In this document: positions 11,532 through 26,473 of the stretch, one piece after another | Layout of the letters: every line of letters begins with the position of its first letter | Position numbering within the stretch: position 1 is the stretch's first letter | Source of the DNA: Pelagibacterales bacterium SAG-MED31 | GTDB lineage: Bacteria; Pseudomonadota; Alphaproteobacteria; HIMB59; GCA-002718135 | Reading direction: 5' to 3' | NCBI GenBank assembly: GCA_014653715.1 | Contig: JACWEB010000003.1 | Location: forward strand, 1-61,716 | Length of the DNA stretch: 61,716 nt | Position numbers and translations under genes: made by a program | Notes under the pieces: generated by a model | What the model was told of the DNA's origin: nothing | What the model saw: the letters and a program-made list of their open reading frames with translations, nothing else | Database searches by the model: none

Positions 11532-11676
11532 AATGCTTATTTTCTCCTAAATATAGTCACTTTCTAGTAATACAAAAAATTAAGACAAAATATAGCATTT
11601 ATTCAAACTAATAATATTGAATATTTTTAGTGAAGTAGTATGGGTTCATTATCAAATTTCTATGGAGGAAATAAAA

Positions 11677-13251
11677 ATGAAAAAATTAATTAATATTCTT
11701 TTGGTATTGGTTATGTCAGGTTTTGTTTCAACTTCATTTGCCGCTTCATTAAAGTGGTCAATGCCAGGTGACTCATTAACCTTAGATCCACATGCTCAAA
11801 ATGAAGGACCAACACACATGGTTTCTCGACAAGTATATGAAGGACTAGTAACTCCAGGTATTAACATGGAAATACTCCCACAACTTGCAGAGTCATGGGA
11901 GGCTACTAGTGCAGATATTTGGATATTTAATATTCGTAAAGGAGTTAAATTTCATGACGGCTCAGATCTTGATGCAAGAGATATAGCCTTCAGTATTAAT
12001 AGAGCTAAAACAGCACCATCTGATATGGTAGATTTAATCAAAAGTATTAAATCAGCATCAGCAATTGATGATCATACTGTTGTAATTAACACTAATGGAC
12101 CAAATCCACTTCTTTTAAACCAACTTACACAAATATTTGTAATGTCTGAAGCTTGGGCAAAAGCCAACAGTTGTGAAGTATCATACAACTGGGATGCTGG
12201 CGAAACTTCTTACTGTGCTTCCAATGCAAACGGTACTGGACCTTTTAAAATCACTTTTAGAGAACAGGACGTAAGAACTGTTTTCGAAAAAAATAATGAT
12301 TGGTGGGGAGATCATAGCACTCATAATTTAGATCAAATAGAACTACTTCCAATTAAAAATGACGCAACAAGAGTTGCAGCACTTCTCTCTGGTGAAATTG
12401 ATTATACTAATATTGTACCAGTTCAAGATATAGATAGAATTAAATCTTCTTCTAGTCATACGGTAAAATCAACACCATCAAATAGAACAATATTCTTTGG
12501 AATGGATCAAGGCTCAGCTGAACTTAACTCATCAAATATTAAAGGTAAAAATCCTTTTGCTGATAAAAGAGTTCGTTTAGCAATGTACCATGCGTTAGAT
12601 ATGGAAGCTATTAAGGATAAAGTTATGAGAGGACAAAGTGCTCCTGCTGGTATTATTACTGCACCAGGTATCAATGGGCACACACCGGAACGTGATCAAA
12701 GACTTCCTTATGATCCAGAACTGTCAAAAAAATTATTGGCAGAAGCAGGTTATCCTGATGGATTTGAGCTTACATTAGACTGTCCTAATGATCGTTATAT
12801 TAATGACGAGGCTATTTGTGTAGCTGCTATTGGTATGTTTGCGAAAATTGGTGTTACAGTAAATCTTGATGCCAAAACTAAAAGTCAACACTTCTCTGAA
12901 ATTAAAGAAGGTGATTCAAATGGTATGACAAGTGATATGTATATGTTAGGTTGGGGAGTTCCAACTTTTGACAGTGAATATGTATACTCATATTTATTTG
13001 ATAGTGCTGGTAGCTGGAATAAAGTAAATTTTAGTAATGCTAGAGTGGATGAGTTAGTTGCATCAATGAAGATTGAAACAGACTTAGATAAAAGAAATGC
13101 TATGATTGCAGAAGCTTGGGATATTACTCAAGATGATGTAACATACTTACCTTTACATCACCAAGTTGCAAATCAGGCATCTAAAAGTAATGTCGATGTT
13201 CCAATTAGAATGAACAATGAACCATTATTTAGGTTTACTAACGTAAACTAA
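11677..13251 (+). CDS. ABC transporter substrate-binding protein, family 5 (DppA/OppA-like)
   Basis: Signal peptide; TLDPH, YEGLV, LAESW, GVKFHDG, NGTGPF, DKRVRLAM, LLAEAGY; GGAGG Shine-Dalgarno at 11664-11668 supports ATG 11677. Confidence 0.95.
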   Translation: MKKLINILLVLVMSGFVSTSFAASLKWSMPGDSLTLDPHAQNEGPTHMVSRQVYEGLVTPGINMEILPQLAESWEATSADIWIFNIRKGVKFHDGSDLDARDIAFSINRAKTAPSDMVDLIKSIKSASAIDDHTVVINTNGPNPLLLNQLTQIFVMSEAWAKANSCEVSYNWDAGETSYCASNANGTGPFKITFREQDVRTVFEKNNDWWGDHSTHNLDQIELLPIKNDATRVAALLSGEIDYTNIVPVQDIDRIKSSSSHTVKSTPSNRTIFFGMDQGSAELNSSNIKGKNPFADKRVRLAMYHALDMEAIKDKVMRGQSAPAGIITAPGINGHTPERDQRLPYDPELSKKLLAEAGYPDGFELTLDCPNDRYINDEAICVAAIGMFAKIGVTVNLDAKTKSQHFSEIKEGDSNGMTSDMYMLGWGVPTFDSEYVYSYLFDSAGSWNKVNFSNARVDELVASMKIETDLDKRNAMIAEAWDITQDDVTYLPLHHQVANQASKSNVDVPIRMNNEPLFRFTNVN

Positions 13252-13265
13252 AATTAACTTATAAT

Positions 13266-13294
13266 TTTTGGCCAGAGTAATACTCTGGCCAAAA
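13266..13294 (+). terminator. Stem-loop after the substrate-binding protein gene (terminator or mRNA-stabilising hairpin)
   Basis: ttttggccagagt-aat-actctggccaaaa, perfect 13-bp stem. Confidence 0.75.
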
Positions 13295-13302
13295 TTCACA
13301 CA

Positions 13303-14280
13303 ATGATCAGCTATTTTTTCAAAAGACTACTCCAATCTATTCTTGTTATGTTTGTTGTTGCTTTTGTTTCATTTTCACTTTTTAATTTTGTTGGTGATCC
13401 TGTTAACAGCATGACAGGGGAAGATGCTTCGGATGAAAGAAGGGCTGAAGTAAGAGAGATATTAGGGTTAAATGATCCTGTCTATATTCAATTTTCTAGA
13501 TTTGTTGGCAATATAGTTCAAGGAAATTTTGGTATTTCTTATCAATTAAAAAGAGAAGTTTCTGATTTAATAGGTGAAAGATTACCAGCAACTCTTGAGT
13601 TAGTTTTTGTGTCTGCAATGCTAGCTATAATAATAGGAACAATTTTAGGAGTCTATACAGGTATTCATAGAGATAGTTATTTATCAAATATTATTCTCGT
13701 TGTGTCTCTAGCTGGTGTTTCCCTCCCCACATTCATCATTGGTATTATGCTAATATACTTATTCTCAGTTATCTTAGGCATTCTTCCATCTTTTGGAAGA
13801 GGAGAGGTTACTGATTTGGGTTTTTGGACAACAGGATTTTTAACTATCTCTGGTTTAAAAGCTCTTATACTTCCATCCATTACCTTAAGTTTATTTCAAA
13901 TGACTTATGTAATAAGACTAGTCAGAGCTGAAATGATGGAAATATTACAAACTGATTATATTAAATTTGCAAGAGCAAGAGGAATAAAAAATAACATAAT
14001 TAACTATAAGCACGCACTCAAAAATGGCTTAATACCTGTCATAACAATAACAGGTATTAATATTGGTACTTTAATTGCCTTTTCTATAATTACAGAAACA
14101 GTTTTTCAATGGCCTGGTATGGGCTCCCTATTTATTAACGCCGTATACTTTGTCGATATACCCATCATGTCTGCTTATATGATTATGGTGGCTTTTATTT
14201 TTGTAATGATAAATTTTATAGTTGATATCACTTATTATTTTATTGATCCAAGAATTAGACTTAAAGAAGAAAGCAATTAA
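13303..14280 (+). CDS. Peptide/nickel ABC transporter permease (DppB-like)
   Basis: GDP, RLPATLEL, DYIKFARARG (EAA motif), ETVFQWPGMG, IDPRI. Confidence 0.93.
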   Translation: MISYFFKRLLQSILVMFVVAFVSFSLFNFVGDPVNSMTGEDASDERRAEVREILGLNDPVYIQFSRFVGNIVQGNFGISYQLKREVSDLIGERLPATLELVFVSAMLAIIIGTILGVYTGIHRDSYLSNIILVVSLAGVSLPTFIIGIMLIYLFSVILGILPSFGRGEVTDLGFWTTGFLTISGLKALILPSITLSLFQMTYVIRLVRAEMMEILQTDYIKFARARGIKNNIINYKHALKNGLIPVITITGINIGTLIAFSIITETVFQWPGMGSLFINAVYFVDIPIMSAYMIMVAFIFVMINFIVDITYYFIDPRIRLKEESN

Positions 14281-14282
14281 TT

Positions 14283-15206
14283 ATGATTAAGCAAACTTTT
14301 AATAAAATTTATGATACTGATATAGGCTATAGTTTCTTTAATTCAAAAATTGCTATTATTTCATCAAGTATTTTTTTTATAATTTTTCTTTGCTCTTTTT
14401 TTGCAGGAATAATTGCACCTTACAATCCTTTTGATCCTGCAAGTGTTTCTTTGATGGATGCTTTTACACCACCTGTATGGTCAGATGGAGGAAGTGCAAG
14501 TTTTTTTCTGGGAACTGATCAGCAAGGACGGGATATGTTTTCTACAATGATTTATGGTTCAAGAATTTCTCTGATCGTTGGTTTTGCTTCAATTTTGTTT
14601 GCTATGATATTAGGGGTCTTTCTTGGTGTAACTGCAGGATATATAGGTGGTAGATATGAAATAATTATAATGCGCATTACAGATATACAATTAACAATAC
14701 CAACCATTTTGATGGCTTTATTAGTAGATGGAATAGCTAGAGCAGTAATTTCCCGATCAATGCATGATGAGATGGCAATTTATGTTTTAATCTTTGCCAT
14801 TGGTATTTCTGAATGGCCTCAGTTTGCTAGAGTTACCAGAGCATCAACTCTGGTTGAAAAAAATAAAGAGTACGTTTCTGCATCTAGGATCATTGGTTTA
14901 TCAAATATAATTATAATGTTTAAACATATATTACCTAATATTCTTAGACCTATTCTAGTAATTGCAACAATTGGTTTAGCTTTAGCTATTATAACAGAGT
15001 CAACATTGAGTTTTTTAGGAGTTGGGGTGCCACCAACAACACCTTCTTTAGGAACACTTATTAGATTTGGAAATAATTTTTTATTTTCTGGTGAGTGGTG
15101 GATAACTTTTTTTCCTGCTATTTTTCTTGTAGTCTTAGCTTTATCTATTAATCTTTTAGGAGATTGGATGAGAGATGCCTTAAATCCAAAATTAAAAAAG
15201 AGATGA
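14283..15206 (+). CDS. Peptide/nickel ABC transporter permease (DppC-like)
   Basis: LGTDQQGRD, YGSRISL, HILPN, LSFLGVG, LLGDWMRDALNP. Confidence 0.93.
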   Translation: MIKQTFNKIYDTDIGYSFFNSKIAIISSSIFFIIFLCSFFAGIIAPYNPFDPASVSLMDAFTPPVWSDGGSASFFLGTDQQGRDMFSTMIYGSRISLIVGFASILFAMILGVFLGVTAGYIGGRYEIIIMRITDIQLTIPTILMALLVDGIARAVISRSMHDEMAIYVLIFAIGISEWPQFARVTRASTLVEKNKEYVSASRIIGLSNIIIMFKHILPNILRPILVIATIGLALAIITESTLSFLGVGVPPTTPSLGTLIRFGNNFLFSGEWWITFFPAIFLVVLALSINLLGDWMRDALNPKLKKR

Positions 15207-16903
15207 GTTTATTAGAAATTAAAAATTTAAACATTAGTTATAAAACTAGAAAAGAAACTATAGTTGCTAGTAGTAATGTTAATTTTACATTAGAGAGAGG
15301 TGAAATACTAGGTATCGTTGGTGAGTCTGGATCTGGTAAATCAACTATAGCTAATGCAATTATTAATTTAATTGATCCACCTGGGCAAATTACTGACGGT
15401 ATAATAAAAATAGACAATAAAGAATTACAAAATAATGAAGAAATCATTCAAAAAATAAGAGGAAAAAAAATAGGATTTGTTTTTCAAGATCCACAAACCT
15501 CATTAAATCCACTTTTTAAAATAAAAGATCAATTAATAGAAACAATACAAACACATCTAAGTGTATCTTACGATGAGGCTCTAAAAAAATCTATTAATCT
15601 TCTTGAAGAAGTTGGGATAGAAAACGCAACTAAAAGAATTGAAGATTATCCTCATCAATTTAGCGGAGGTATGCGTCAACGGGTTGTTATTGCTTTAGCA
15701 ATAAGTTGTGAGCCAGATCTAATAATAGCAGATGAACCAACAACTGCATTAGATGTTAGTATTCAATATCAAATCTTAGAATTATTAAAAGAACTTACAA
15801 TAAAAAGAAATTTAGGAGTTATTATTATTACTCATGATATGGGGGTGATTGCTGAAACTACAAATAAAGTGATTGTTATGCGTCATGGATTAATAGTGGA
15901 GCAAGGCAAGACTAAGGATTTGCTAACTAACCCAAAATCTACAGAAGCACGAAGTTTAGTTATATCAGTTCCGCCAACAAATAAAAAAATTGAAAGATTT
16001 AAACTCATTGGTCCTGATGGTTCAGAAATTACATCAAGTTCTACTAATTTAACAAAAAATATTATTAAAACTTGGGGGGTAAGAAAAAATACTAATCAAA
16101 AATTATTAGAGTTAAAAAATATAACAAAGGTTTTTGATGATCAGTCTATCTCTTATAGAAAAAAAATAGATGAAAATGCAGTTAAGGCAGTAAATAATGT
16201 TTCATTTAAGTTATTTGAGGGAGAAACACTCGGTTTAGTTGGAGAATCAGGTTCTGGTAAATCAACAATTGCTAAAATCATTACTGGGCTAGTTAGGCCA
16301 TCAGTTGGTGAGCTGGAGTATAATGGTTTGCCACTTTATAACTCAAAAAGAAAGTATCAAATTGACAAGAGTAGGGGTCAAATACAAATGATTTTCCAAG
16401 ACCCATATTCATCATTAAATCCAAGATTTAAAGTAAAGGATATTATCGCTGAACCAATTAAATTTTTTCAAAAAAGTATTATGAAAAATGACTTGGAGCA
16501 AAACGTTAATGATTTAATTGATATTGTCGGAATGACTAGAAAATCTTTGGATCGATACCCCCATGAATTTTCAGGTGGACAAAGGCAAAGAATTTCAATT
16601 GCAAGAGCACTAGCAACAAGGCCAAGATTATTAATATGTGATGAACCAACATCAGCTCTAGATGTAAGTATTCAAGCACAAATATTAAACCTACTAAAAG
16701 ATATTCAAGACGAATTACATTTAACAATGCTATTTATTAGCCATGATCTTCCTGTCATCAGACAAATGTGCAATAGAATAATAGTATTAAAAAATGGTAT
16801 TGTGTGTGAGACAAATGAGACTGAAAAGTTATTTAATGATCCTACACATAAATATACAAAAGAATTAATAAACTTAATGCCAAAAATTGAATCAATTATT
16901 TAA
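15203..16903 (+). CDS. ABC transporter ATP-binding protein with two fused NBDs (DppD/DppF-like)
   Basis: Two GESGSGKST Walker A, two SGG signatures, two DEPT motifs; start ATG 15203. Confidence 0.95.
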   Translation: MSLLEIKNLNISYKTRKETIVASSNVNFTLERGEILGIVGESGSGKSTIANAIINLIDPPGQITDGIIKIDNKELQNNEEIIQKIRGKKIGFVFQDPQTSLNPLFKIKDQLIETIQTHLSVSYDEALKKSINLLEEVGIENATKRIEDYPHQFSGGMRQRVVIALAISCEPDLIIADEPTTALDVSIQYQILELLKELTIKRNLGVIIITHDMGVIAETTNKVIVMRHGLIVEQGKTKDLLTNPKSTEARSLVISVPPTNKKIERFKLIGPDGSEITSSSTNLTKNIIKTWGVRKNTNQKLLELKNITKVFDDQSISYRKKIDENAVKAVNNVSFKLFEGETLGLVGESGSGKSTIAKIITGLVRPSVGELEYNGLPLYNSKRKYQIDKSRGQIQMIFQDPYSSLNPRFKVKDIIAEPIKFFQKSIMKNDLEQNVNDLIDIVGMTRKSLDRYPHEFSGGQRQRISIARALATRPRLLICDEPTSALDVSIQAQILNLLKDIQDELHLTMLFISHDLPVIRQMCNRIIVLKNGIVCETNETEKLFNDPTHKYTKELINLMPKIESII

Positions 16904-20081: not shown

Positions 20082-20315
20082 GTGGAATATTCAACAGATA
20101 ATATAATTAAACTTGCATGGAGTGATAGAGTTTCATTTGAAAAAATTGAACGACTACATGGAAAAAATGAATCAGAAGTAATCAAAATAATGAGAAAAAA
20201 TTTAAAGCCAAAATCTTTTAAAATATGGAGAGAGAGGGTAAGTGGCAGAACAAGAAAGCATGAAAAAAAAAGGTCTCTTTCATTCAAACCTTTTCGATTT
20301 GATGACTATGTATAA
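20082..20315 (+). CDS. Small conserved protein, TIGR03643/DUF2805-like
   Basis: IIKLAWSDRVSFEKI, ESEVIKIMR, LKPKSFKIWRERVSGR pattern. Confidence 0.75.
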   Translation: MEYSTDNIIKLAWSDRVSFEKIERLHGKNESEVIKIMRKNLKPKSFKIWRERVSGRTRKHEKKRSLSFKPFRFDDYV

Positions 20316-20853
20316 GATTATATTTACTTATTTATTTTTTTTAACAATATCATCATTTTTATATGCAGATCAAAATGATAAAAGATTAAATTATTTATTT
20401 GATAAACTAGTAGTTGCCGAAGAAGAAAAAGAAATAAATAAAATAACCAATCAAATTTGGAAAATTTGGCATGAAATTGATGATCCTAAAACAACTAGAG
20501 AGTTTGAAACTGGTGTTCAAATGATGAATTTAGGATATTTCAAAAGATCAATTGATTATTTTGATAAAGTAATAAACAAAAATCAAAACTTTGCTGAAGC
20601 TTGGAATAAGAGAGCAACTGCTCATTTTATGATGGGTAATTTTGACTTATCAATGCAAGATATTAGCAAAACTTTACAGTTAGAACCCAGACATTTTGGA
20701 GCTTTAGATGGTATGGGATTAATATATATTCATCTTAATCAACCTGATAAAGCAATTGATATTTATAATAAAATGTTAGAAATTTTTCCTAACAGTATTT
20801 CAACAAAAATGAAAATAGAAAGAATTTTATCTCGTAAAACTCAATCCACTTAA
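20308..20853 (+). CDS. Exported tetratricopeptide-repeat protein
   Basis: Signal peptide from ATG 20308; FAEAWNKRAT, LEPRHFGALDGMG TPR motifs. Confidence 0.85.
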   Translation: MYKIIFTYLFFLTISSFLYADQNDKRLNYLFDKLVVAEEEKEINKITNQIWKIWHEIDDPKTTREFETGVQMMNLGYFKRSIDYFDKVINKNQNFAEAWNKRATAHFMMGNFDLSMQDISKTLQLEPRHFGALDGMGLIYIHLNQPDKAIDIYNKMLEIFPNSISTKMKIERILSRKTQST

Positions 20854-20891
20854 AAAATAAATTTTATAAAATTACAATTAAGAAAATAGGT

Positions 20892-21464
20892 CTACTTAAA
20901 ATTTACTGCTTTCCTCAACAATACATCATTATATTTTTCACTTTTACTTAGTTGATTGTAAGCAGTAATAGTATTTAGGCAATGTAATTGAATAGTTGGT
21001 GGCATACCAATCTTCGCTAATTCTTGGGAACTTTTTTGTTTAAAAGTTTTATTAAAGAGATTTACACTATTTGATTTCAGGAAACCTGTTAACGTTGTTG
21101 CAGATACTGCAAAATTTACATTCTCTGGAATATAAGGTGATTCTTCATCAAGTAACATTTTAACTTTATTAAGCCCAGACGAAGCAACACCAACTACCTG
21201 ACCATTATAATTTAAGACTGGACCACCACTATAACCTGGTTGGATAGCAGCATCTATTTGTATCAGAGATATATCATTATTTGGGCCACTTAATGAACTC
21301 ACAATTCCTCTAGTAAGCTTAACACTAGAGCTTAAATTTTCTGCTAAGGGAAAGCCAAAAGCCATAATATCTTGACCAAATTCTGCTCCAGAAGGATTTA
21401 TAATGATCGATATCTTACATCTCCCAACACGTGATATTATTTTAAATCCAATACTTTTTACCAC
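20892..21464 (-). pseudogene. Truncated trypsin-like (S1C/HtrA-type) serine protease, C-terminal half only
   Basis: GQDIMAFGFPL, TRGIVS, IQIDAAIQPGYSGGPVL, GQVVGV present; no in-frame catalytic His or Asp motif, no signal peptide, no convincing start codon. Confidence 0.7.
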
Positions 21465-24400
21465 TTAGTTAACACTTGATCTTCGATGCCATTTAGTTGA
21501 GGTGTTTGGTTTGCTTGTCTTGATACGTTTTTGTTGATGAATGCAAAAAGCTCTCCATTTGTAATTTTATTATCACTATTTGCATCTGCCTCCCCTTCTA
21601 GTCCCTTCATCATGTAATACGAGAATAAACCATGCTCAGCCTCTTTTAATACCTTTGCGGTTTCTGTATTTGAAGATGCACTAAATATTGTAAAATTTGA
21701 TGGTATATCTTGCTCTTGAGCATCGATAAAGATAGGTCTTGCTGCAACCAAGAGTTCTTCGGTACGTGAAGCTCCACTATAACAAGTATCTAAGAAAACG
21801 GTGACATGCTTTGGGTTTAGTTCTGCTATTTGATCAAATAATTGATTACGCATTAAAGATGTTAATTCTAGTAATTCTGGATCACCATCGGTTGGAAGTA
21901 AAAATAAATCACTACCATCTTCTGAAGCTAATCCATGACCAGAAAAATAGACATATAAATGAGTTTCATTATCTCTAATAACTTTAGGAAGCCATTTTTT
22001 GACTACACCTAAGGTATCATTTCTCCCAGCATCATTATTAATTAAAAGCTTTATATTTTCCTTCGGCACTCCAAGAGAGGCGAAGGCAAAATCATTAAAA
22101 TAAAGTGCATCATTTTCAGCATATAATGCAGAGAATGTATTTTTATAATTCTCTACACCAATAATAAGCGCTGCTTTATTTGTGCTTATCTCACTTTTTA
22201 TTTTAGTTGGATTAAGACTATCAAGTTTCACTTGTTGAATAACTACTTTTTGACGTTTTAAGCTTACTATCTTAGAAGATTTATTTCCGTGAATATCAAT
22301 AGCCACAATTTCTACATCTTGTCCTTTTGGTTTCACAAAAAATTCTTTTTTGAAATTTGAATTGTTAATGGAAACTTCATATCCATCAATAGTTAGACTA
22401 GCAATTTCACTCTCATCATTAATACTTCCAGATATCTCTGCCATTAATTGACTATTAGACTCAAACTCTTCACTTACTATTATGTTTGGACTTGAACCAT
22501 CCTCTGAAACTTGAATACTAAGATTAGTCTCAGTAACTTCTGTTGCTTTTGTTTTATTAGGTTTAGTTTTTACAATATTAGTTTCTTCTATGTTATTGCC
22601 ATCTGTTATTTTTTTAAGAATAAAATTACCTTTTACACTTACCTCAAAAATATTATTACCTAAAGAAGAGTATCTACATTTAATTCCATCAGAAGTTTCT
22701 AAAACATTTCCATCAGAAAATTCTAAAAACTCAGAATGAATTATTTGAATTTTTTCACTACCTCCAGCTTCTTTTTTTACTTTATCAAACAATGATGTTT
22801 TTGCTAATTCACAAGCCTCACCAAAGGTAGTATTCCCTCCAATCTGCACATCCATAGTAATATCATTTATTGTTATTTCTCTTGCTTCCTCTTCCTTCTT
22901 CTTTGCTTCTGCTATACGTTTTTCTTCTTCCTCTTTTGCTTTTTGCTTTTCTTTTGCAATTTGTTCTTCTTTTTGTTTTTTGAATAATGCCTTATCTCCA
23001 ACAATTGCATATCTAAATAATGGTTCATTGTTCATTCTAATTGGAACATCAACATTACTTTTAGATGCTTGGTTAATAACTTGATGATGTAATGGTAAAT
23101 AAGTTACATTATCTTGAGTAATATCCCAAGCTTCTGCAATCATAGCATTTCTTTTTTTCATATTTGTTTCCATACCCATGGACGCTACTAACTCATCTAC
23201 TCTAGCATTACTGAAATTTACTTTATTCCAACTGCCAGAACTTTCAAATAGGTAGGAGTACACATAATGACTATCGTATGTTGGAACACCCCAACCTATC
23301 ATGTACATATCACTATAGCCATTTTTTACCTTACTGAAATGGAACGATTTGGTTTCCCCATCAGGCTTAACTTTCACTCCAATTTTTGCAAACATATCAA
23401 CAACAGCCAAGCAAATTGCTCCATCATTAATATAACGATCAGTAGGACAATCAAGAGTAACACTGAAACCATTTGGATAACCTGCCTCTGCCAATAGTTT
23501 TTTTGACAGTTCTGGATCATAAGGAAGTCTTTGATCTCTATCTGTAGTATAACCTTGAACACCAGGTGGAATAATAATACCTGCAGGAGCACTTTGTCCT
23601 CTCATTATCTTGTCTCTAATAGTATCCATATCTAAAGCATGGTACATTGCTAGACGAACTCTTTTATCAGCAAAAGGATTTTTTCCTTTAATGTTAGAAG
23701 AATTTAATTCAGCCGAACCTTGATCCATACCAAAAAATATTGTTCTATTTTGAGGAGTCATTTTTACATCGTGCGAAGAAGAAGATTTAATTCTTTCTAT
23801 ATCATGAACTGGAACAACATTGGTGTAATCGATTTCTCCAGATAAAAGTGCTGCAACTCTGGTTGCATCATTTTTAATAGGAAGTAACTCAACTTTATCT
23901 ACATTGAATGTACTTTCTTCACCCCACCAATTATCATTCTTTTCGAAGACAGTTCTTACGTCTTGTTCTCTAAATGTAATTTTGAAAGGTCCAGTACCGT
24001 TTGCATTGGAAGCACAATAAGATGTTTCTCTTGCATTCCAATTATATGAAACTTCACAACCATTTGCTTTTGCCCAAGCTTCAGACATAACAAAAATTTG
24101 AGTTAATTGGTTTAAAAGAATTGGATTTGGTCCATTAGTGTTAATTGCAACTTTATAATCATCAATAAATTTTATAGATTTAATACCCTTTAATAAATTT
24201 ACCATATCAGATGGGGCAGTTTTGGCTCTATTGATACTAAAAACTATATCTTTTGCAGTTAGAGCTCTTCCATCATGAAAATAAACTCCTTTACGAATAT
24301 TAAATATCCAAGTGTTAGAATTTATTATTTCCCATGATACTGCAAGCTGAGGAAGTATTTCCATGTTAATACCTTGAGTAACTAATCCTTCATATACTTG

Positions 24401-24556
24401 TCGAGAAACCATATGAGTTGGTCCTTCATTTTGTGCATGTGGATCTAAAGTTAATGAGTCATCTGGCATTGACCATCTGATCGTATTAGATAAAACTGAT
24501 GAACAAAAAATAATTATAAAAAATGATACTGAAAATTTTATAACATATTTACTCAT
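21458..24556 (-). CDS. Fusion protein: family-5 ABC substrate-binding domain + charged linker + unknown domain + Ig-like domain + caspase-like peptidase C14
   Basis: aa ~27-517 align by eye with 11677..13251 (about 80% identity); aa ~793-1032 carry AALIIGVENY, YFSGHG (His874), FLDTCYSG (Cys925), HGLFSYY, ADANSDNKIT, QTPQ. Confidence 0.9.
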   Translation of the reverse strand: MSKYVIKFSVSFFIIIFCSSVLSNTIRWSMPDDSLTLDPHAQNEGPTHMVSRQVYEGLVTQGINMEILPQLAVSWEIINSNTWIFNIRKGVYFHDGRALTAKDIVFSINRAKTAPSDMVNLLKGIKSIKFIDDYKVAINTNGPNPILLNQLTQIFVMSEAWAKANGCEVSYNWNARETSYCASNANGTGPFKITFREQDVRTVFEKNDNWWGEESTFNVDKVELLPIKNDATRVAALLSGEIDYTNVVPVHDIERIKSSSSHDVKMTPQNRTIFFGMDQGSAELNSSNIKGKNPFADKRVRLAMYHALDMDTIRDKIMRGQSAPAGIIIPPGVQGYTTDRDQRLPYDPELSKKLLAEAGYPNGFSVTLDCPTDRYINDGAICLAVVDMFAKIGVKVKPDGETKSFHFSKVKNGYSDMYMIGWGVPTYDSHYVYSYLFESSGSWNKVNFSNARVDELVASMGMETNMKKRNAMIAEAWDITQDNVTYLPLHHQVINQASKSNVDVPIRMNNEPLFRYAIVGDKALFKKQKEEQIAKEKQKAKEEEEKRIAEAKKKEEEAREITINDITMDVQIGGNTTFGEACELAKTSLFDKVKKEAGGSEKIQIIHSEFLEFSDGNVLETSDGIKCRYSSLGNNIFEVSVKGNFILKKITDGNNIEETNIVKTKPNKTKATEVTETNLSIQVSEDGSSPNIIVSEEFESNSQLMAEISGSINDESEIASLTIDGYEVSINNSNFKKEFFVKPKGQDVEIVAIDIHGNKSSKIVSLKRQKVVIQQVKLDSLNPTKIKSEISTNKAALIIGVENYKNTFSALYAENDALYFNDFAFASLGVPKENIKLLINNDAGRNDTLGVVKKWLPKVIRDNETHLYVYFSGHGLASEDGSDLFLLPTDGDPELLELTSLMRNQLFDQIAELNPKHVTVFLDTCYSGASRTEELLVAARPIFIDAQEQDIPSNFTIFSASSNTETAKVLKEAEHGLFSYYMMKGLEGEADANSDNKITNGELFAFINKNVSRQANQTPQLNGIEDQVLTKW
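23012..24480 (-). repeat. Diverged ~1.5 kb inverted copy of the substrate-binding protein gene (partner at ~11750-13232)
   Basis: Collinear protein match; exact DNA tracts such as 13090-13134 = reverse complement of 23111-23155 (45 bp) and 13195-13232 = reverse complement of 23013-23050 (38 bp). Confidence 0.93.
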
Positions 24557-24693
24557 TTAATAATTATATCATTTAAAATGAAATATTCTGATATAAAATT
24601 TTAAAAAATAAATATAATCTTATATAAAATGTTAGTAAAATACTTAAAATCAAATAAAGTAACTTTTTTTCAATTTTTAAATAAGTTTCATAA

Positions 24694-25629
24694 TTAATTA
24701 ATAAATAAAAAAATTAAAATAGATAAAGTAAAAAAACTAATAAAAGTACTCAATACAATATTTGACGAAATTAGATCTTTTTGTGCATTATATCTATAGG
24801 CAAAGTAATAAGATTGCGAACCACTTGGTAGGGCTGATGCGATAGTTATAGTTACTACTAATAAATCTTCTAGGTTAAAAATATATTTTGCAATTATAAA
24901 ACCTATCACAGGGTGAATGATATTTTTTAAAAAAGTAAAAATTATTGATTTTTTAAATGATAATATTAAATTAAATTTTGCTAGAGAAATTCCTAAAGAT
25001 AAAAGAACGCAAGGTAAGGCAATGACTGAAACACTATTTAAAATATTCATCAATATATCAGGTTGCATAATTTTAGTATAATTGAAAAATATTCCTATAA
25101 AAATGCCTACGAGTACAATATTTTTAAATAACCCAGTTATTGTTGATAAAATCTTTTTGCTTAAGTTAAGACTTCTATTTCTATACGACTCTATTATTAT
25201 GGTGGTGTATGTGAAATGAACAAATCCATGAAATAATACAAGTATCATATATGGCATAACATTAGCTGTCCCCAAAAGGGAATGCATGAGGGGTATTCCG
25301 AGAGCAACAGAATTTCCAAAACAAGCAGAAAGACCTAAAAGTGCATTATCATCAGTTTTGTACTTAAATAATAAATTGCCAACTTGAAAACCAATTATGA
25401 AAACTAGAATTCCGCTACCAAAAAATGAAACTAATAATAAAACGGTATTTATTCTTGGAAATTCTATTTGCCAAAAATAAGTTATTAAAGCTAATGGGAG
25501 TAGAATATTGAAACTCAAATAATCAAATTTAGAGGTGATTTTTTCAGATACATTGATAAATTTTTTTATTATGAAACCTATAATAACATAACCAAATACT
25601 GAAAATATAATATAAATTAAGCTATTCAT
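24694..25629 (-). CDS. AEC (auxin efflux carrier) family transporter
   Basis: ILLPLAL, FGNSVALGIP, LLSLG, KNIIHP, ALPSG; ~10 TM helices. Confidence 0.85.
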   Translation of the reverse strand: MNSLIYIIFSVFGYVIIGFIIKKFINVSEKITSKFDYLSFNILLPLALITYFWQIEFPRINTVLLLVSFFGSGILVFIIGFQVGNLLFKYKTDDNALLGLSACFGNSVALGIPLMHSLLGTANVMPYMILVLFHGFVHFTYTTIIIESYRNRSLNLSKKILSTITGLFKNIVLVGIFIGIFFNYTKIMQPDILMNILNSVSVIALPCVLLSLGISLAKFNLILSFKKSIIFTFLKNIIHPVIGFIIAKYIFNLEDLLVVTITIASALPSGSQSYYFAYRYNAQKDLISSNIVLSTFISFFTLSILIFLFIN

Positions 25630-26473
25630 TAGTTAAGAGATTTTGAAAAACATCTTCAAAATTACCACTTAAAATTTGATTAATATCATTGATATTAAAA
25701 CTCATATCTATTGATTTATCCGAAGATAAAACTTGTATTTCAGGATTATCTAAATTTCCTAAGGAATTAATTTCGAAGATCTTTTCTTTTTCAATTTCTA
25801 CAATTGCTTGAATATTTGCAAAGTTGTTTTTCAAATTATATTTTCCAGCTATTTCAATATTATATTCCTTATTTAATACCTTAAAGTAATCAATATAAAT
25901 ATATTCATCATCATAAATAATTTTACTATTGAAAGAAGATTTATCATTTAGGTAATTATAAAGTACATTTGATAATTGTTTATAAGTTTTAGGAATATTT
26001 AATTTTTGTATGATAATATTAACAAATTGTAATGATTGTTTATCCTCATCGTCTAAAGTAAACGATAAGTTTCCTTCGGGTAATAAAGTTAATTTTAATA
26101 AATTATTTAAATTATATTTATTAATTTCTCCTGACATAGATAAATTGTCAAGCAATACTCTATCAATTTTTAAATTTTTAGAATAAAAATTAAAAAAAGG
26201 TTTTTTAAAATTGTAATTTTTCTGAATAAATATTTCTCCATCTTCAAGAAATAATTTATTATTAATTTTTTCTAAATTAAAATTTACCAAAAGTGAAAGA
26301 TTAGGAATAATTTTTAATTGGTGGATTTCTTTCAAACTAATATTTACATTAAAGTTTTCTTCTAAATTTTTTATATATTTATTTACGTAAATTTTATCAA
26401 CTAGATAAAAGACGAAAAAAAATATACAAATTATAAGAACTATAAGAAGTAAAAATATTTTTTTTATCATCAA
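25622..26473 (-). CDS. Hypothetical membrane-anchored beta-rich protein (possibly AsmA-like)
   Basis: N-terminal TM; C-terminal IAGKYNL...GNLDNPEI resembles AsmA-family C-termini. Confidence 0.45.
   Translation of the reverse strand: MMIKKIFLLLIVLIICIFFFVFYLVDKIYVNKYIKNLEENFNVNISLKEIHQLKIIPNLSLLVNFNLEKINNKLFLEDGEIFIQKNYNFKKPFFNFYSKNLKIDRVLLDNLSMSGEINKYNLNNLLKLTLLPEGNLSFTLDDEDKQSLQFVNIIIQKLNIPKTYKQLSNVLYNYLNDKSSFNSKIIYDDEYIYIDYFKVLNKEYNIEIAGKYNLKNNFANIQAIVEIEKEKIFEINSLGNLDNPEIQVLSSDKSIDMSFNINDINQILSGNFEDVFQNLLTNE

What the first reader, a model, noticed from the sequence alone, without database searches (positions are those of the whole stretch)
21458..24556. Peptide-binding ABC receptor fused to an intact caspase-like protease: candidate ligand-coupled extracytoplasmic protease
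Seen: one uninterrupted 1032-aa ORF. It comprises a signal peptide, a full family-5 substrate-binding domain (aa ~27-517), a K/E-rich helical linker, a ~90-aa two-Cys domain, an Ig-like beta domain (SPNIIV...ISGSINDESEI...AIDIHGN) and a peptidase C14 domain. The C14 domain has FSGHG (His874, codon 21935-21937), LDTCYSG (Cys925, codon 21782-21784) and a DANSDNKIT Ca-binding-like loop. Established: family-5 proteins close on peptide-type ligands; bacterial caspase homologues use a His-Cys dyad and are often controlled by fused accessory domains. I know of no described SBP5-caspase architecture, but could not search. Inference: either (a) a cut-and-capture nutrient device that makes peptides and hands them to the neighbouring DppBC permease, or (b) a ligand-gated periplasmic protease for signalling or defence.
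Basis: partly seen in the sequence, partly recalled or inferred. Interest (0 to 1): 0.9.

Follow-up and report, generated by a model that had tools for sequence, protein, structure and literature searches.

The report
Binding-protein head on swappable caspase-like protease
A small marine bacterium carries an intact gene that joins a nutrient-binding protein to a caspase-like protease; it is one unusual member of a large, apparently undescribed family of exported proteases whose front ends are swapped like cassettes.

Summary
Window 21458-24556 (-) is one 1032-aa ORF with a signal peptide, a complete SBP5 domain, a K/E-rich helix, an orphan small domain, an Ig-like sandwich and a C14 caspase domain with His874 and Cys925.

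The interpretation needs revising. The last ~360 aa (Ig + C14) form a constant module found in hundreds of marine alphaproteobacterial proteins. Their N-terminal parts are unrelated: OpuAC, LIV-type and SBP_bac_8 binding proteins, PBP5, PDZ, MORN, Sel1, LysM and others. One relative is 97% identical in this module but has a different head.

The SBP5 head is a diverged copy of the genus's own transporter SBP. Its dN/dS is 0.14-0.18, and 7 of 107 universally invariant positions are changed. The gene lies in a 3.8-kb strain-specific insertion beside a 5'-truncated trypsin-module gene. It is not in an operon with the DppBC-like permease.

No second SBP5-Ig-C14 protein ranked in the top 150 of 1.84 billion representatives. 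My best reading is a periplasmic protease tethered to an interchangeable targeting head. Function, expression and independent read support for the junction remain unshown.

The parts
20870..24693 (.). Strain-specific insertion of about 3.8 kb. It holds the truncated trypsin-module ORF, the fusion gene and its 5' region, and lies between a small TPR gene (20242-20853, +) and a Mem_trans gene (24694-25629, -).
   Evidence: By my count of the rows listed, the two flanks abut on one contig in 25 of 40 other genus genomes. The boundaries were aligned against the empty sites of G011 and G043. Logan contigs in runs X1 and X4 join 20789 to 24715, which is the empty-site form. No terminal repeats were found.
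21458..24556 (-). The fusion gene, a 1032-aa ORF including its stop codon.
24488..24556 (-). Predicted Sec signal peptide, aa 1-23 (basic start, hydrophobic core, ...VLS then NTIRW).
   Evidence: Read from the sequence; no signal-peptide predictor was available. The mature end aligns with the mature start of the free SBPs. DNA homology to the free SBP genes starts at 24487 in most genomes.
23006..24487 (-). Complete SBP family-5 domain, aa 24-517. It is a diverged copy of the genus's own DppA-like SBP.
   Evidence: Pfam. The tree places it with the genus orthologues in a clade with 100% SH-aLRT support, on a long branch of 0.14. dN/dS is 0.14-0.18, against 0.05-0.09 among free orthologues. 7 of 107 universally invariant and 47 of 414 genus-invariant positions are changed.
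22889..22996 (-). K/E-rich helix, aa 521-556, resembling an ER/K single alpha-helix spacer.
   Evidence: AF2 predicts one helix over model residues 2-36, block pLDDT 84-90. Composition is 12 K and 10 E of 36. It is 76% identical in DNA to the linker of the G042 trypsin-module gene.
22610..22879 (-). Orphan small alpha/beta domain with two Cys, aa 560-649.
   Evidence: AF2 models it at low confidence, pLDDT 47-71. There is no homologue, no Pfam family, and Atlas scores are below 0.8. Contig record 13 of run X3 matches 22706-22892 and then continues unlike the window.
22499..22609 (-). Low-complexity T/K/N-rich linker, aa 650-686. Similarity to the constant module of relatives begins here, at aa ~661-674.
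   Evidence: AF2 pLDDT is below 50. BLASTP similarity starts at aa 674 for P0002 and aa 661 for P0003.
22247..22498 (-). Ig-like beta-sandwich domain, aa 687-770, the first part of the constant module.
   Evidence: AF2 predicts strands with pLDDT above 90. Relatives give marginal Glucodextran_B matches (11 of 62 members).
21461..22177 (-). Peptidase C14 (caspase-fold) domain, aa 794-1032.
   Evidence: Pfam. AF2 plus Foldseek gives MALT1 3v4o_A as best match, E 1.5e-12. The invariant residues of 62 family members are retained.
21935..21937 (-). Catalytic His874 codon, in the motif FSGHG.
21782..21784 (-). Catalytic Cys925 codon, in the motif LDTCYSG.
21551..21586 (-). EF-hand-like loop DANSDNKITNGE, aa 991-1002.
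   Evidence: Pattern plus a predicted helix-loop-helix. D991, D995, T999 and E1002 are invariant, and N993 and I998 are at least 90% conserved, in 62 sequences. No Pfam EF-hand model matches.
20892..21464 (-). 5'-truncated remnant of a trypsin-module gene (190-aa ORF). It covers only Trypsin_2 profile positions 77-144 of 144.
   Evidence: Pfam. Full-length relatives of 575 and 538 aa exist in G042 and G004. It aligns with residues 97-270 of the 270-aa G042 query at 84% identity.
11617..16903 (+). Context: the resident ABC transporter, made of a free SBP5 (11617-13251), DppB-like and DppC-like permeases, and a fused double ATPase.

Best explanation
This is a real, intact gene for an exported (periplasmic) modular cysteine protease.

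The working end is a constant Ig-like + C14 caspase-fold module with a His874/Cys925 dyad and a conserved EF-hand-like loop. This module circulates among marine Alphaproteobacteria (SAR116, Pelagibacteraceae, AAA536-G10-type and Thalassospiraceae records) and is recombined onto many different N-terminal heads. The breakpoints lie in low-complexity linkers.

Here the head is a full SBP5 domain captured from the genus's own DppA-like transporter SBP. It has since evolved away from the constraints that hold for the free SBP.

Inferred mechanism. The head does not feed the transporter. It acts as a targeting or recognition module that sets where the protease sits or what it meets. It could do so by binding its peptide-type ligand or an exposed peptide stretch, or by docking on the DppBC-type permease. 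The ER/K helix and the flexible linker hold the protease at a distance. Ca2+ binding at the EF-hand-like loop may keep the protease inactive until it is exported.

Shown here: the architecture, the modularity, the origin of the head, purifying but shifted selection on the head, and the position in an insertion. Inferred only: export, catalysis, targeting and the Ca2+ role.
For: Domains and fold.

Constant module with swapped heads:
- 637 proteins reached E<=0.001. By the precomputed Pfam labels, 17 of the 120 listed carry SBP-type heads (13 OpuAC, 3 LIV-type, 1 SBP_bac_8).
- I checked 10 proteins myself. Seven SBP-type heads were confirmed from that list, as were a PBP5/OmpA head and a PDZ head; the tenth was P0153.
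- A Pfam census of 61 genome-derived members found MORN 12, PDZ 4, TPR_16 4, Sel1 3, and SBP_bac_8, LysM, PG_binding_1, AMIN and FGE-sulfatase 1 each.
- P0002 is 96.7% identical over aa 674-1032 and P0003 is 90.3% identical over aa 661-1032. Both have unrelated N-terminal parts.

Origin and selection of the head:
- The head falls in one clade with 21 genus SBPs (SH-aLRT 100), on a long branch.
- dS is 0.52-0.76, similar to values between species. dN/dS is 0.14-0.18, against 0.05-0.09 among free SBPs.
- It keeps 100 of 107 universally invariant positions. It changes 7, against 0-1 for any free orthologue in a leave-one-out test.

Genomic setting:
- The gene is in an insertion at a site that is otherwise empty.
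- Exported-type N-termini and envelope-binding heads are seen across the family.
- Family genes form tandem arrays: 28 of 74 loci hold 2 or more copies. 23 of 74 loci also hold a trypsin-module gene (examples). The truncated trypsin-module gene next to the fusion fits this pattern.
Against: There is no evidence of expression or of the protein. No public run held more than 0.23 of the junction's sampled words, and none of the contig pieces printed (32, with 1705 more not shown) bridges 22916-23010.

This head/module combination was seen only once. It sits beside a decayed gene, so it could be a young, unselected mosaic.

The divergence of the head may predate the fusion, so its dN/dS does not prove selection on the fused form.

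No test here addresses ligand binding, permease docking, proteolysis or Ca2+ dependence. The EF-hand reading has no profile support. PADLOC and NCBIfam place the protein in no defined system.
Confidence: 0.5

Rival explanations
1. Ligand-gated protease. Closure of the SBP5 clamshell on its ligand allosterically switches the C14 domain on or off, for signalling or defence.
For: SBP domains act as sensor heads in other fused proteins (established knowledge, recalled). The head is complete and under purifying selection. Four SBP classes recur as heads on this module.
Against: The module is 90-97% identical to modules on unrelated heads, which leaves little room for a co-evolved interface. A 36-residue predicted helix, an extra domain and a disordered linker separate the head from the protease. 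Most heads in the family are not ligand-binding clamshells.
Confidence: 0.12
2. Cut-and-capture nutrient device. The protease makes peptides, and the fused SBP5 hands them to the DppBC-like permease.
For: A cognate-type transporter lies 4.5 kb away, and the head descends from that transporter's SBP lineage. Peptide-type SBP5 relatives have solved structures.
Against: The gene is in a separate, strain-specific insertion on the other strand. The transporter keeps its own SBP. Positions invariant in free SBPs are changed in the head. Other heads in the family, such as OpuAC, PBP5, MORN and LysM, have no link to peptide uptake. An ABC ATPase homologue lay in the flanks of 5 of 74 family loci, and a DppB-like permease in none.
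Confidence: 0.08
3. Unselected young mosaic. Illegitimate recombination in a shuffling-prone island produced an in-frame fusion that has no maintained function and will decay.
For: This combination was seen only once. It lies next to a trypsin-module gene that lost its 5' half. The insertion was not found in the 40 other genus genomes. The middle domain is an orphan.
Against: A 3.1-kb ORF is intact in a 29% G+C genome. All 47 invariant family positions of the module are kept. The head has dN/dS well below 1 and has diverged in a way that differs from the transporter SBPs. That divergence suggests a long history outside the transporter role.
Confidence: 0.15
4. Envelope conflict or defence protease with an integrated decoy. 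Heads are copies of the cell's own periplasmic proteins. Binding or modification of the decoy by an invader's factor triggers the protease.
For: The head is a copy of a host periplasmic protein. The heads are hypervariable, the genes form tandem arrays, and they occur sporadically in islands, one of which carries an integrase. The family co-occurs with a second protease family.
Against: There is no match to a defined defence system. PADLOC gives only a generic caspase model at E 9e-9. No partner or immunity gene lies in the insertion. The idea rests on analogy alone.
Confidence: 0.1
5. Assembly artefact. The contig joins an SBP5 gene and a caspase gene that are separate in the cell.
For: The genome is a 54%-complete draft in 61 contigs. 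No independent contig was shown to bridge the join. Low-complexity K/E-coding DNA lies at the join.
Against: Both flanks of the insertion are syntenic with relatives, so two compensating misjoins would be needed. The head is only 82% identical in DNA to the resident SBP gene, so there is no repeat to collapse. The frame stays open through the join. The part after the join has no signal peptide or start of its own, and the head lacks the stop codon that ends the free SBPs.
Confidence: 0.05

Closest known systems
Bacterial caspase homologues (Peptidase C14; orthocaspases and bacterial metacaspases) with accessory domains
   Same: It has the caspase fold and a His-Cys dyad. Accessory domains such as TPR, Sel1 and FGE-sulfatase occur on family members. 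They are also listed for bacterial metacaspases in PMC3501461 (passages read).
   Different: The constant part includes an Ig-like domain. The heads are periplasmic binding proteins and envelope-binding modules. An SBP head is not mentioned in the main text of PMC3501461 or PMC4933709 (term searches only; supplements were closed). Sequence search finds no solved relative of the module.
MALT1 paracaspase (caspase domain followed by an Ig domain)
   Same: It is the best structural match of the C14 domain (3v4o_A, E 1.5e-12). An Ig-type domain adjoins the protease. An Asp lies two residues before the catalytic Cys; in MALT1 this position contributes to Arg specificity (recalled).
   Different: Sequence identity is only 14-16%. 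The Ig domain precedes the protease here instead of following it. The protein is exported and bacterial. I do not claim homology beyond the shared fold.
Cluster C / family-5 ABC substrate-binding proteins (DppA, OppA, NikA type)
   Same: It has a complete colinear domain, 82-84% identical to the genus's transporter SBPs. PDB relatives reach E 2.5e-41.
   Different: It is not encoded with a permease. It carries a 515-aa C-terminal extension. 7 of 107 universally invariant positions are changed and dN/dS is raised. NCBIfam equivalog cut-offs are not reached.
HtrA/DegP, DegS and Tsp-type periplasmic proteases with a peptide-binding PDZ domain
   Same: The logic is the same: an exported protease joined to a peptide-recognition domain that recruits substrates or activates the protease (established knowledge, recalled). 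PDZ is itself one of the heads in this family (PDZ_2 in 4 of 62 members; P0121).
   Different: The catalytic class and fold differ. The head is an SBP clamshell. Nothing was tested functionally.
P0153, the only other protein found with both Pfam domains (C14 and SBP5)
   Same: It holds PF00656 and PF00496 in one exported protein.
   Different: The order is opposite (C14 first, SBP5 last). It has no Ig module and comes from a GC-rich organism. Its SBP5 part is 41% identical to the window's, so it is an independent fusion.

Membership tests
Peptidase C14 (caspase-haemoglobinase fold, clan CD) | Profile match above the curated threshold | tested here: met
   PF00656 scores 50.9 bits against a cut-off of 21.4, over aa 794-1022.
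Peptidase C14 (caspase-haemoglobinase fold, clan CD) | Catalytic His and Cys in their conserved motifs | tested here: met
   H874 (FSGHG) and C925 (DTCYSG) are invariant in the 62-sequence family alignment.
Peptidase C14 (caspase-haemoglobinase fold, clan CD) | Caspase-type alpha/beta fold | tested here: met
   The AF2 model has pLDDT above 90 over most of the domain. Foldseek finds MALT1, caspases and metacaspases at E 1e-12 to 1e-8.
Peptidase C14 (caspase-haemoglobinase fold, clan CD) | Peptidase activity and P1 specificity | not testable with these tools
   This needs an enzyme assay with a C925A control.
NCBIfam NF047832 (caspase, EACC1-associated type) | Score at or above the curated cut-off | tested here: not met
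   73.2 bits against a cut-off of 140.
ABC transporter substrate-binding protein, family 5 | Complete SBP_bac_5 domain colinear with free SBPs | tested here: met
   PF00496 E 7.8e-81. 491 residues align with the 496-residue mature orthologues.
ABC transporter substrate-binding protein, family 5 | Encoded with, and serving, a permease and ATPase | tested here: not met
   The gene stands alone in an insertion. The nearest transporter is 4.5 kb away on the other strand and has its own SBP.
ABC transporter substrate-binding protein, family 5 | Conservation of the positions that are invariant in free SBPs (a proxy for ligand binding and docking) | tested here: inconclusive
   100 of 107 positions are kept and 7 are changed, against 0-1 in the leave-one-out test on free orthologues. 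Which function these positions serve was not determined.
EF-hand Ca2+-binding loop | A 12-residue loop with ligands at positions 1, 3, 5, 9 and 12, between two helices | tested here: inconclusive
   DANSDNKITNGE fits the pattern (pattern recalled). A helix-loop-helix is predicted and the key positions are conserved. No Pfam EF-hand model matches.
Known anti-phage defence systems (PADLOC 2.0) | Match to a system-specific model together with the system's partner genes | tested here: not met
   Only the generic 'caspase' model matches, at E 9.1e-9 over positions 5-156 of 453. No partner genes lie in the insertion.
The marine Ig+C14 constant-module family (defined in this report) | A C-terminal ~360-aa Ig-like + C14 module ending ...QVL.xW, preceded by an exported variable head | tested here: met
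   The module is 36-97% identical to that of relatives and all 47 invariant columns are kept.

The most novel reading that the evidence does not exclude
The most abundant marine heterotroph lineages carry an envelope surveillance system. A constant exported caspase-like executioner module is fused to captured copies of the cell's own periplasmic proteins (four classes of transporter binding proteins, PBP5 and others). These copies serve as integrated decoys or sensors. Engagement of the decoy by a phage or competitor factor, or by its ligand, would unleash proteolysis in the periplasm, possibly in a cascade with the co-located trypsin-module proteases. The SBP5-caspase would be one such sensor, newly assembled in this strain.
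Probability: 0.1. Interest if true: 0.85.

Novelty: new variant of a known kind. Interest (0 to 1): 0.58.

Why it matters
Bacterial caspase homologues are widespread, but their functions are mostly unknown. Here one sits in streamlined marine bacteria that otherwise keep few accessory genes.

Three results give a concrete handle on the problem. The protease module is constant and its head is swapped among periplasmic binding proteins and envelope-binding domains. The genes form tandem arrays. They travel with a second, trypsin-type modular protease family.

The SBP5 fusion is a natural experiment. The head's parent protein, its ligand class and its permease are all encoded a few kilobases away. 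Targeting, gating and uptake models can therefore each be tested directly.

If the family turns out to be an envelope-level sensing or defence system, it would matter for understanding phage-host and cell-cell conflict in the ocean's dominant bacteria. If it is housekeeping proteolysis, it is still an undescribed modular family.

Tried and rejected
Independent read support for the junction. No run held more than 0.23 of the sampled words of 22300-23300. On Logan contigs of X1, X3, X4 and X8, the SBP5 part is deep, because the abundant free orthologues map there. The rest has depth 0-22 in every bin. None of the contig pieces printed (32, with 1705 more not shown) bridges 22916-23010. One X3 contig covers position 23005 at 67 letters from its end, at the place where contigs of the free SBP stop; I could not tell whether it spans the join. 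Joints 22591 to 24666 (X4) and 22976 to 24869 (X3) have sides of only 24 letters and were disregarded. Lack of cover is not evidence.

Homodimer of the Ig+C14 module (complex prediction). The verdict was no answer (scores 0.01 and 0.05 against a mark of 0.42). This is not evidence either way.

Middle domain, aa 556-690. No homologue was found among proteins of 567-1806 aa, no Pfam family matched, and Atlas scores were 0.79 or lower. Its fold is unresolved.

Promoter and terminator scan. It found no more sites than in shuffles, so it is uninformative.

Terminal repeats and composition of the insertion. There are no convincing repeats. G+C is 30-36% against 25-31% in the flanks, which is not decisive.

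EF-hand profile: no match.

Sequence search of the C-module against the PDB: no hit. Only the fold search worked.

Fused OpuAC head of P0027 against free OpuAC genes of the order. Identity is 47-51% in family f1. This says nothing about where that head came from.

Literature. Searches found no paper on SBP-caspase fusions or on this family. For PMC3501461 and PMC4933709 I saw only the search listing and passages returned by term searches. Their supplementary tables of architectures were closed and may list such fusions.

Full report
**Observation.**
Window 21458-24556 (-) is one open frame of 1032 aa. Pfam finds SBP_bac_5 at aa 67-442 (E 7.8e-81) and Peptidase_C14 at aa 794-1022 (E 2.2e-13, 50.9 bits against a cut-off of 21.4). 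NCBIfam matches several family-5 SBP equivalogs, all far below their cut-offs. It also matches a caspase subfamily model below cut-off (73 bits against 140).

An AF2 model of aa 521-1032, built on 34 aligned sequences, has mean pLDDT 78.9. It shows, in order:
- one long helix over the K/E-rich stretch (aa 522-556; 12 K and 10 E of 36);
- a low-confidence small alpha/beta domain (aa 560-649);
- a disordered linker (aa ~653-683);
- a confident beta sandwich (aa ~691-767);
- a confident caspase-fold domain.

The best PDB matches of the caspase-fold domain are MALT1 (3v4o_A, E 1.5e-12, target TM 0.75), followed by caspases and metacaspases.

The loop DANSDNKITNGE sits in a predicted helix-loop-helix. 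Its key positions are invariant or at least 90% conserved in 62 family members. No Pfam EF-hand model matches it. The N-terminus reads as a Sec signal peptide. This is read from the sequence, because no predictor was available.

**The protein is one member of a large modular family.**
A search with aa 520-1032 found 637 proteins at E<=0.001 among 8000 scored candidates. Nearly all align only with the last ~360 aa, which is the linker end plus Ig plus C14. Their N-terminal parts are unrelated to each other.

Of the 120 listed, 17 carry precomputed SBP-type Pfam domains: 13 OpuAC, 3 LIV-type and 1 SBP_bac_8. I confirmed seven of these myself, and also a PBP5/OmpA head and a PDZ head.

P0002 is 96.7% identical over aa 674-1032 and P0003 is 90.3% identical over aa 661-1032. 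Both have entirely different N-terminal parts. Recombination therefore happens in the low-complexity linker before the Ig domain.

In species-representative genomes, 357 stretches encode a relative. The record titles name SAR116, Pelagibacteraceae, AAA536-G10-type, Thalassospiraceae and a few other organisms.

A Pfam census of 61 complete genome-derived members plus the window gave:

| Pfam family | Members (of 62) |
|---|---|
| Peptidase_C14 | 61 |
| MORN | 12 |
| Glucodextran_B-like Ig | 11 |
| PDZ_2 | 4 |
| TPR_16 | 4 |
| Sel1 | 3 |
| SBP_bac_8, LysM, PG_binding_1, AMIN, FGE-sulfatase | 1 each |
| SBP_bac_5 | 1 (the window only) |

Many members start with signal peptides or lipoprotein-type signals.

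**How unusual is SBP5 + C14?**
A full HMMER pass of the whole protein over 1.84 billion cluster representatives listed 150 best hits. Each of these matches either the SBP5 half or the C-module, and none matches both. A protein matching both halves would have ranked at the top.

Among longer SBP5 proteins, 1 of the 120 listed carries both domains. This is P0153. It has the reverse order (C14 first), lacks the Ig module and comes from a GC-rich organism. It is an independent fusion.

So SBP-type head plus caspase is a recurrent theme, but this SBP5 combination was seen only here.

**Origin of the head.**
The same contig holds a free SBP5 gene (11617-13251, +) directly upstream of DppB-like and DppC-like permease genes and a double ATPase gene.

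DNA homology between the fusion and the free SBP genes of the genus covers the mature domain (window 23005-24487) at 81-85%. The free proteins end four residues after the point where the fusion runs on into the linker.

A protein tree of the head, 21 genus orthologues and 5 more distant SBPs puts the head in one clade with the genus orthologues (SH-aLRT 100). It sits there on a long branch of 0.14, against a median of 0.006.

Nei-Gojobori estimates:

| Comparison | dS | dN/dS |
|---|---|---|
| Head against free SBPs | 0.52-0.76 | 0.14-0.18 |
| Among free orthologues | similar range | 0.05-0.09 |

The head keeps 100 of 107 positions that are invariant in all 25 free SBPs and changes 7. Any free orthologue changes 0-1 in a leave-one-out test. 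It also changes 47 of 414 genus-invariant positions, against 0-14 for free orthologues.

The head is therefore a folded, selected domain, but its constraints differ from those on the transporter SBP. The module is 97% identical to that of P0002, while the head is at most 84% identical to any free SBP. This suggests the head cassette has had a long history outside the transporter role. An unsampled donor cannot be excluded.

**Genomic setting.**
By my count of the rows listed, the small TPR gene and the Mem_trans gene that flank the locus abut directly on one contig in 25 of 40 other genus genomes. Alignment with two empty sites places the insertion at about 20870-24693. Logan contigs in two runs show the empty-site join.

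The C-module was not found by protein search in 24 of 24 genus genomes, nor in 15 of 16 genomes of a second family. Those genomes are 56-99% complete.

One other genus genome, G073, has five tandem family genes. On one side are a Sir2-family gene and a phage-type integrase gene. On the other are a SHOCT protein, a TPR-Trypsin_2 gene and a DUF4384 gene.

The ORF just downstream of the fusion (20892-21464) covers only Trypsin_2 profile positions 77-144 of 144. Full-length relatives in G042 (575 aa) and G004 (538 aa) have a variable exported N-terminal part, a K/E-rich linker and a C-terminal Trypsin_2 module. The G042 linker resembles the fusion's linker at 76% DNA identity.

Across the 74 family loci:
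- 28 hold two or more C14 copies;
- 23 hold a trypsin-module homologue within the flanks;
- 5 hold an ABC ATPase homologue;
- none holds a DppB-like permease.

These loci are not independent of each other, and their flanks range from 2 to 15 kb.

The one other SBP-headed member with genomic context (L074, SBP_bac_8, 1249 aa) sits in a tandem C14 array beside a TPR-Trypsin_2 gene. No transporter gene is in view.

The window's insertion thus looks like a minimal, partly decayed copy of a recurrent two-protease island.

**Is it an artefact?**
The genome is a 54%-complete draft, and independent reads did not settle the junction. Several observations argue against a chimera:
- Both insertion flanks are syntenic with relatives.
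- The head is only 82% identical in DNA to the resident SBP gene, so no repeat could have been collapsed.
- The frame stays open through the join.
- The downstream part has no start or signal peptide of its own.
- The head lacks the stop codon that ends all the free SBP genes I extracted.

I put an artefact at about 5%.

**Mechanism.**
Shown here: the architecture, the constant module with swappable heads, the origin of the head and its shifted selection, the position in an insertion, and the association with trypsin-module genes.

Inferred:
- The protein is exported.
- The C14 module is an active protease. It may be Arg/Lys-directed, because an Asp lies two residues before the catalytic Cys as in MALT1 (recalled).
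- The head acts as a targeting or recognition module and not as a transporter component.
- The ER/K helix and the flexible linker work as a tether.
- The EF-hand-like loop may tie activity to the Ca2+-rich extracytoplasmic space.

A specific allosteric coupling between SBP5 and C14 is unlikely, because the module is almost identical on unrelated heads. Uptake coupling is unlikely for the reasons given above.

A young unselected mosaic and a conflict or decoy role both remain open. PADLOC gives no system-level match.

**Literature.**
Six searches found nothing on SBP-caspase fusions or on this family. Term searches in the two surveys of bacterial metacaspases found no mention of SBP, periplasmic, OpuAC or PDZ in their main texts (PMC3501461 and PMC4933709; passages only). 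PMC3501461 does report 71 accessory Pfam domain types.

**Verdict.**
This is a new variant of a known kind: a bacterial caspase homologue with accessory domains. It also exposes an apparently undescribed modular family. Interest is moderate to high, at 0.58.

Noticed in passing
L005 6515-8242 (G042) and L006 6808-8424 (G004); window 20892-21464: A second modular exported protease family. It has a variable N-terminal part, a long K/E-rich linker and a near-identical C-terminal Trypsin_2 module (87% identity between G042 and G004), with unrelated heads. At E<=1e-15 it was found in 8 of 41 genus genomes, counting G000.
   Followed up: partly
L103 (G073:C1:144000-163000): An island holding a phage-type integrase gene, a Sir2-family gene, five tandem Ig+C14 genes (952, 837, 603, 688 and 703 aa), a SHOCT protein, a TPR-Trypsin_2 gene and a DUF4384 protein.
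   Followed up: partly
P0153 (845 aa): An independent fusion in reverse order: signal peptide, C14, an Ala/Pro-rich linker, then SBP5. It comes from a GC-rich organism.
   Followed up: partly
L074 1272-10266: A Pelagibacteraceae record with three consecutive large ORFs. The first is a 1015-aa C14 protein, the second a 1249-aa SBP_bac_8 + SHOCT-like + Ig + C14 protein, and the third an ORF of more than 733 aa with no Pfam match. A TPR-Trypsin_2 gene lies divergently next to them.
   Followed up: partly
L005 4027-6165: A 712-aa exported protein with Sel1, MORN and SH3_3 repeats and no protease domain lies just upstream of the trypsin-module gene. Its repeats are of the same kinds as heads found on the C14 family.
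   Followed up: no
window 25622-26473 (-): A 283-aa ORF in a very AT-rich stretch (G+C 18-20%). It has an N-terminal hydrophobic segment and no significant Pfam family.
   Followed up: no
window 15164-16903 (+): The transporter's ATPase is a single 579-aa protein with two ABC domains, a fused DppD/DppF type.
   Followed up: no
window 22706-22892; run X3, contig record 13: A 1437-nt metagenome contig matches only the start of the orphan middle domain (9 differences in 187 nt) and then continues unlike the window. The orphan domain may occur behind a different head elsewhere.
   Followed up: no
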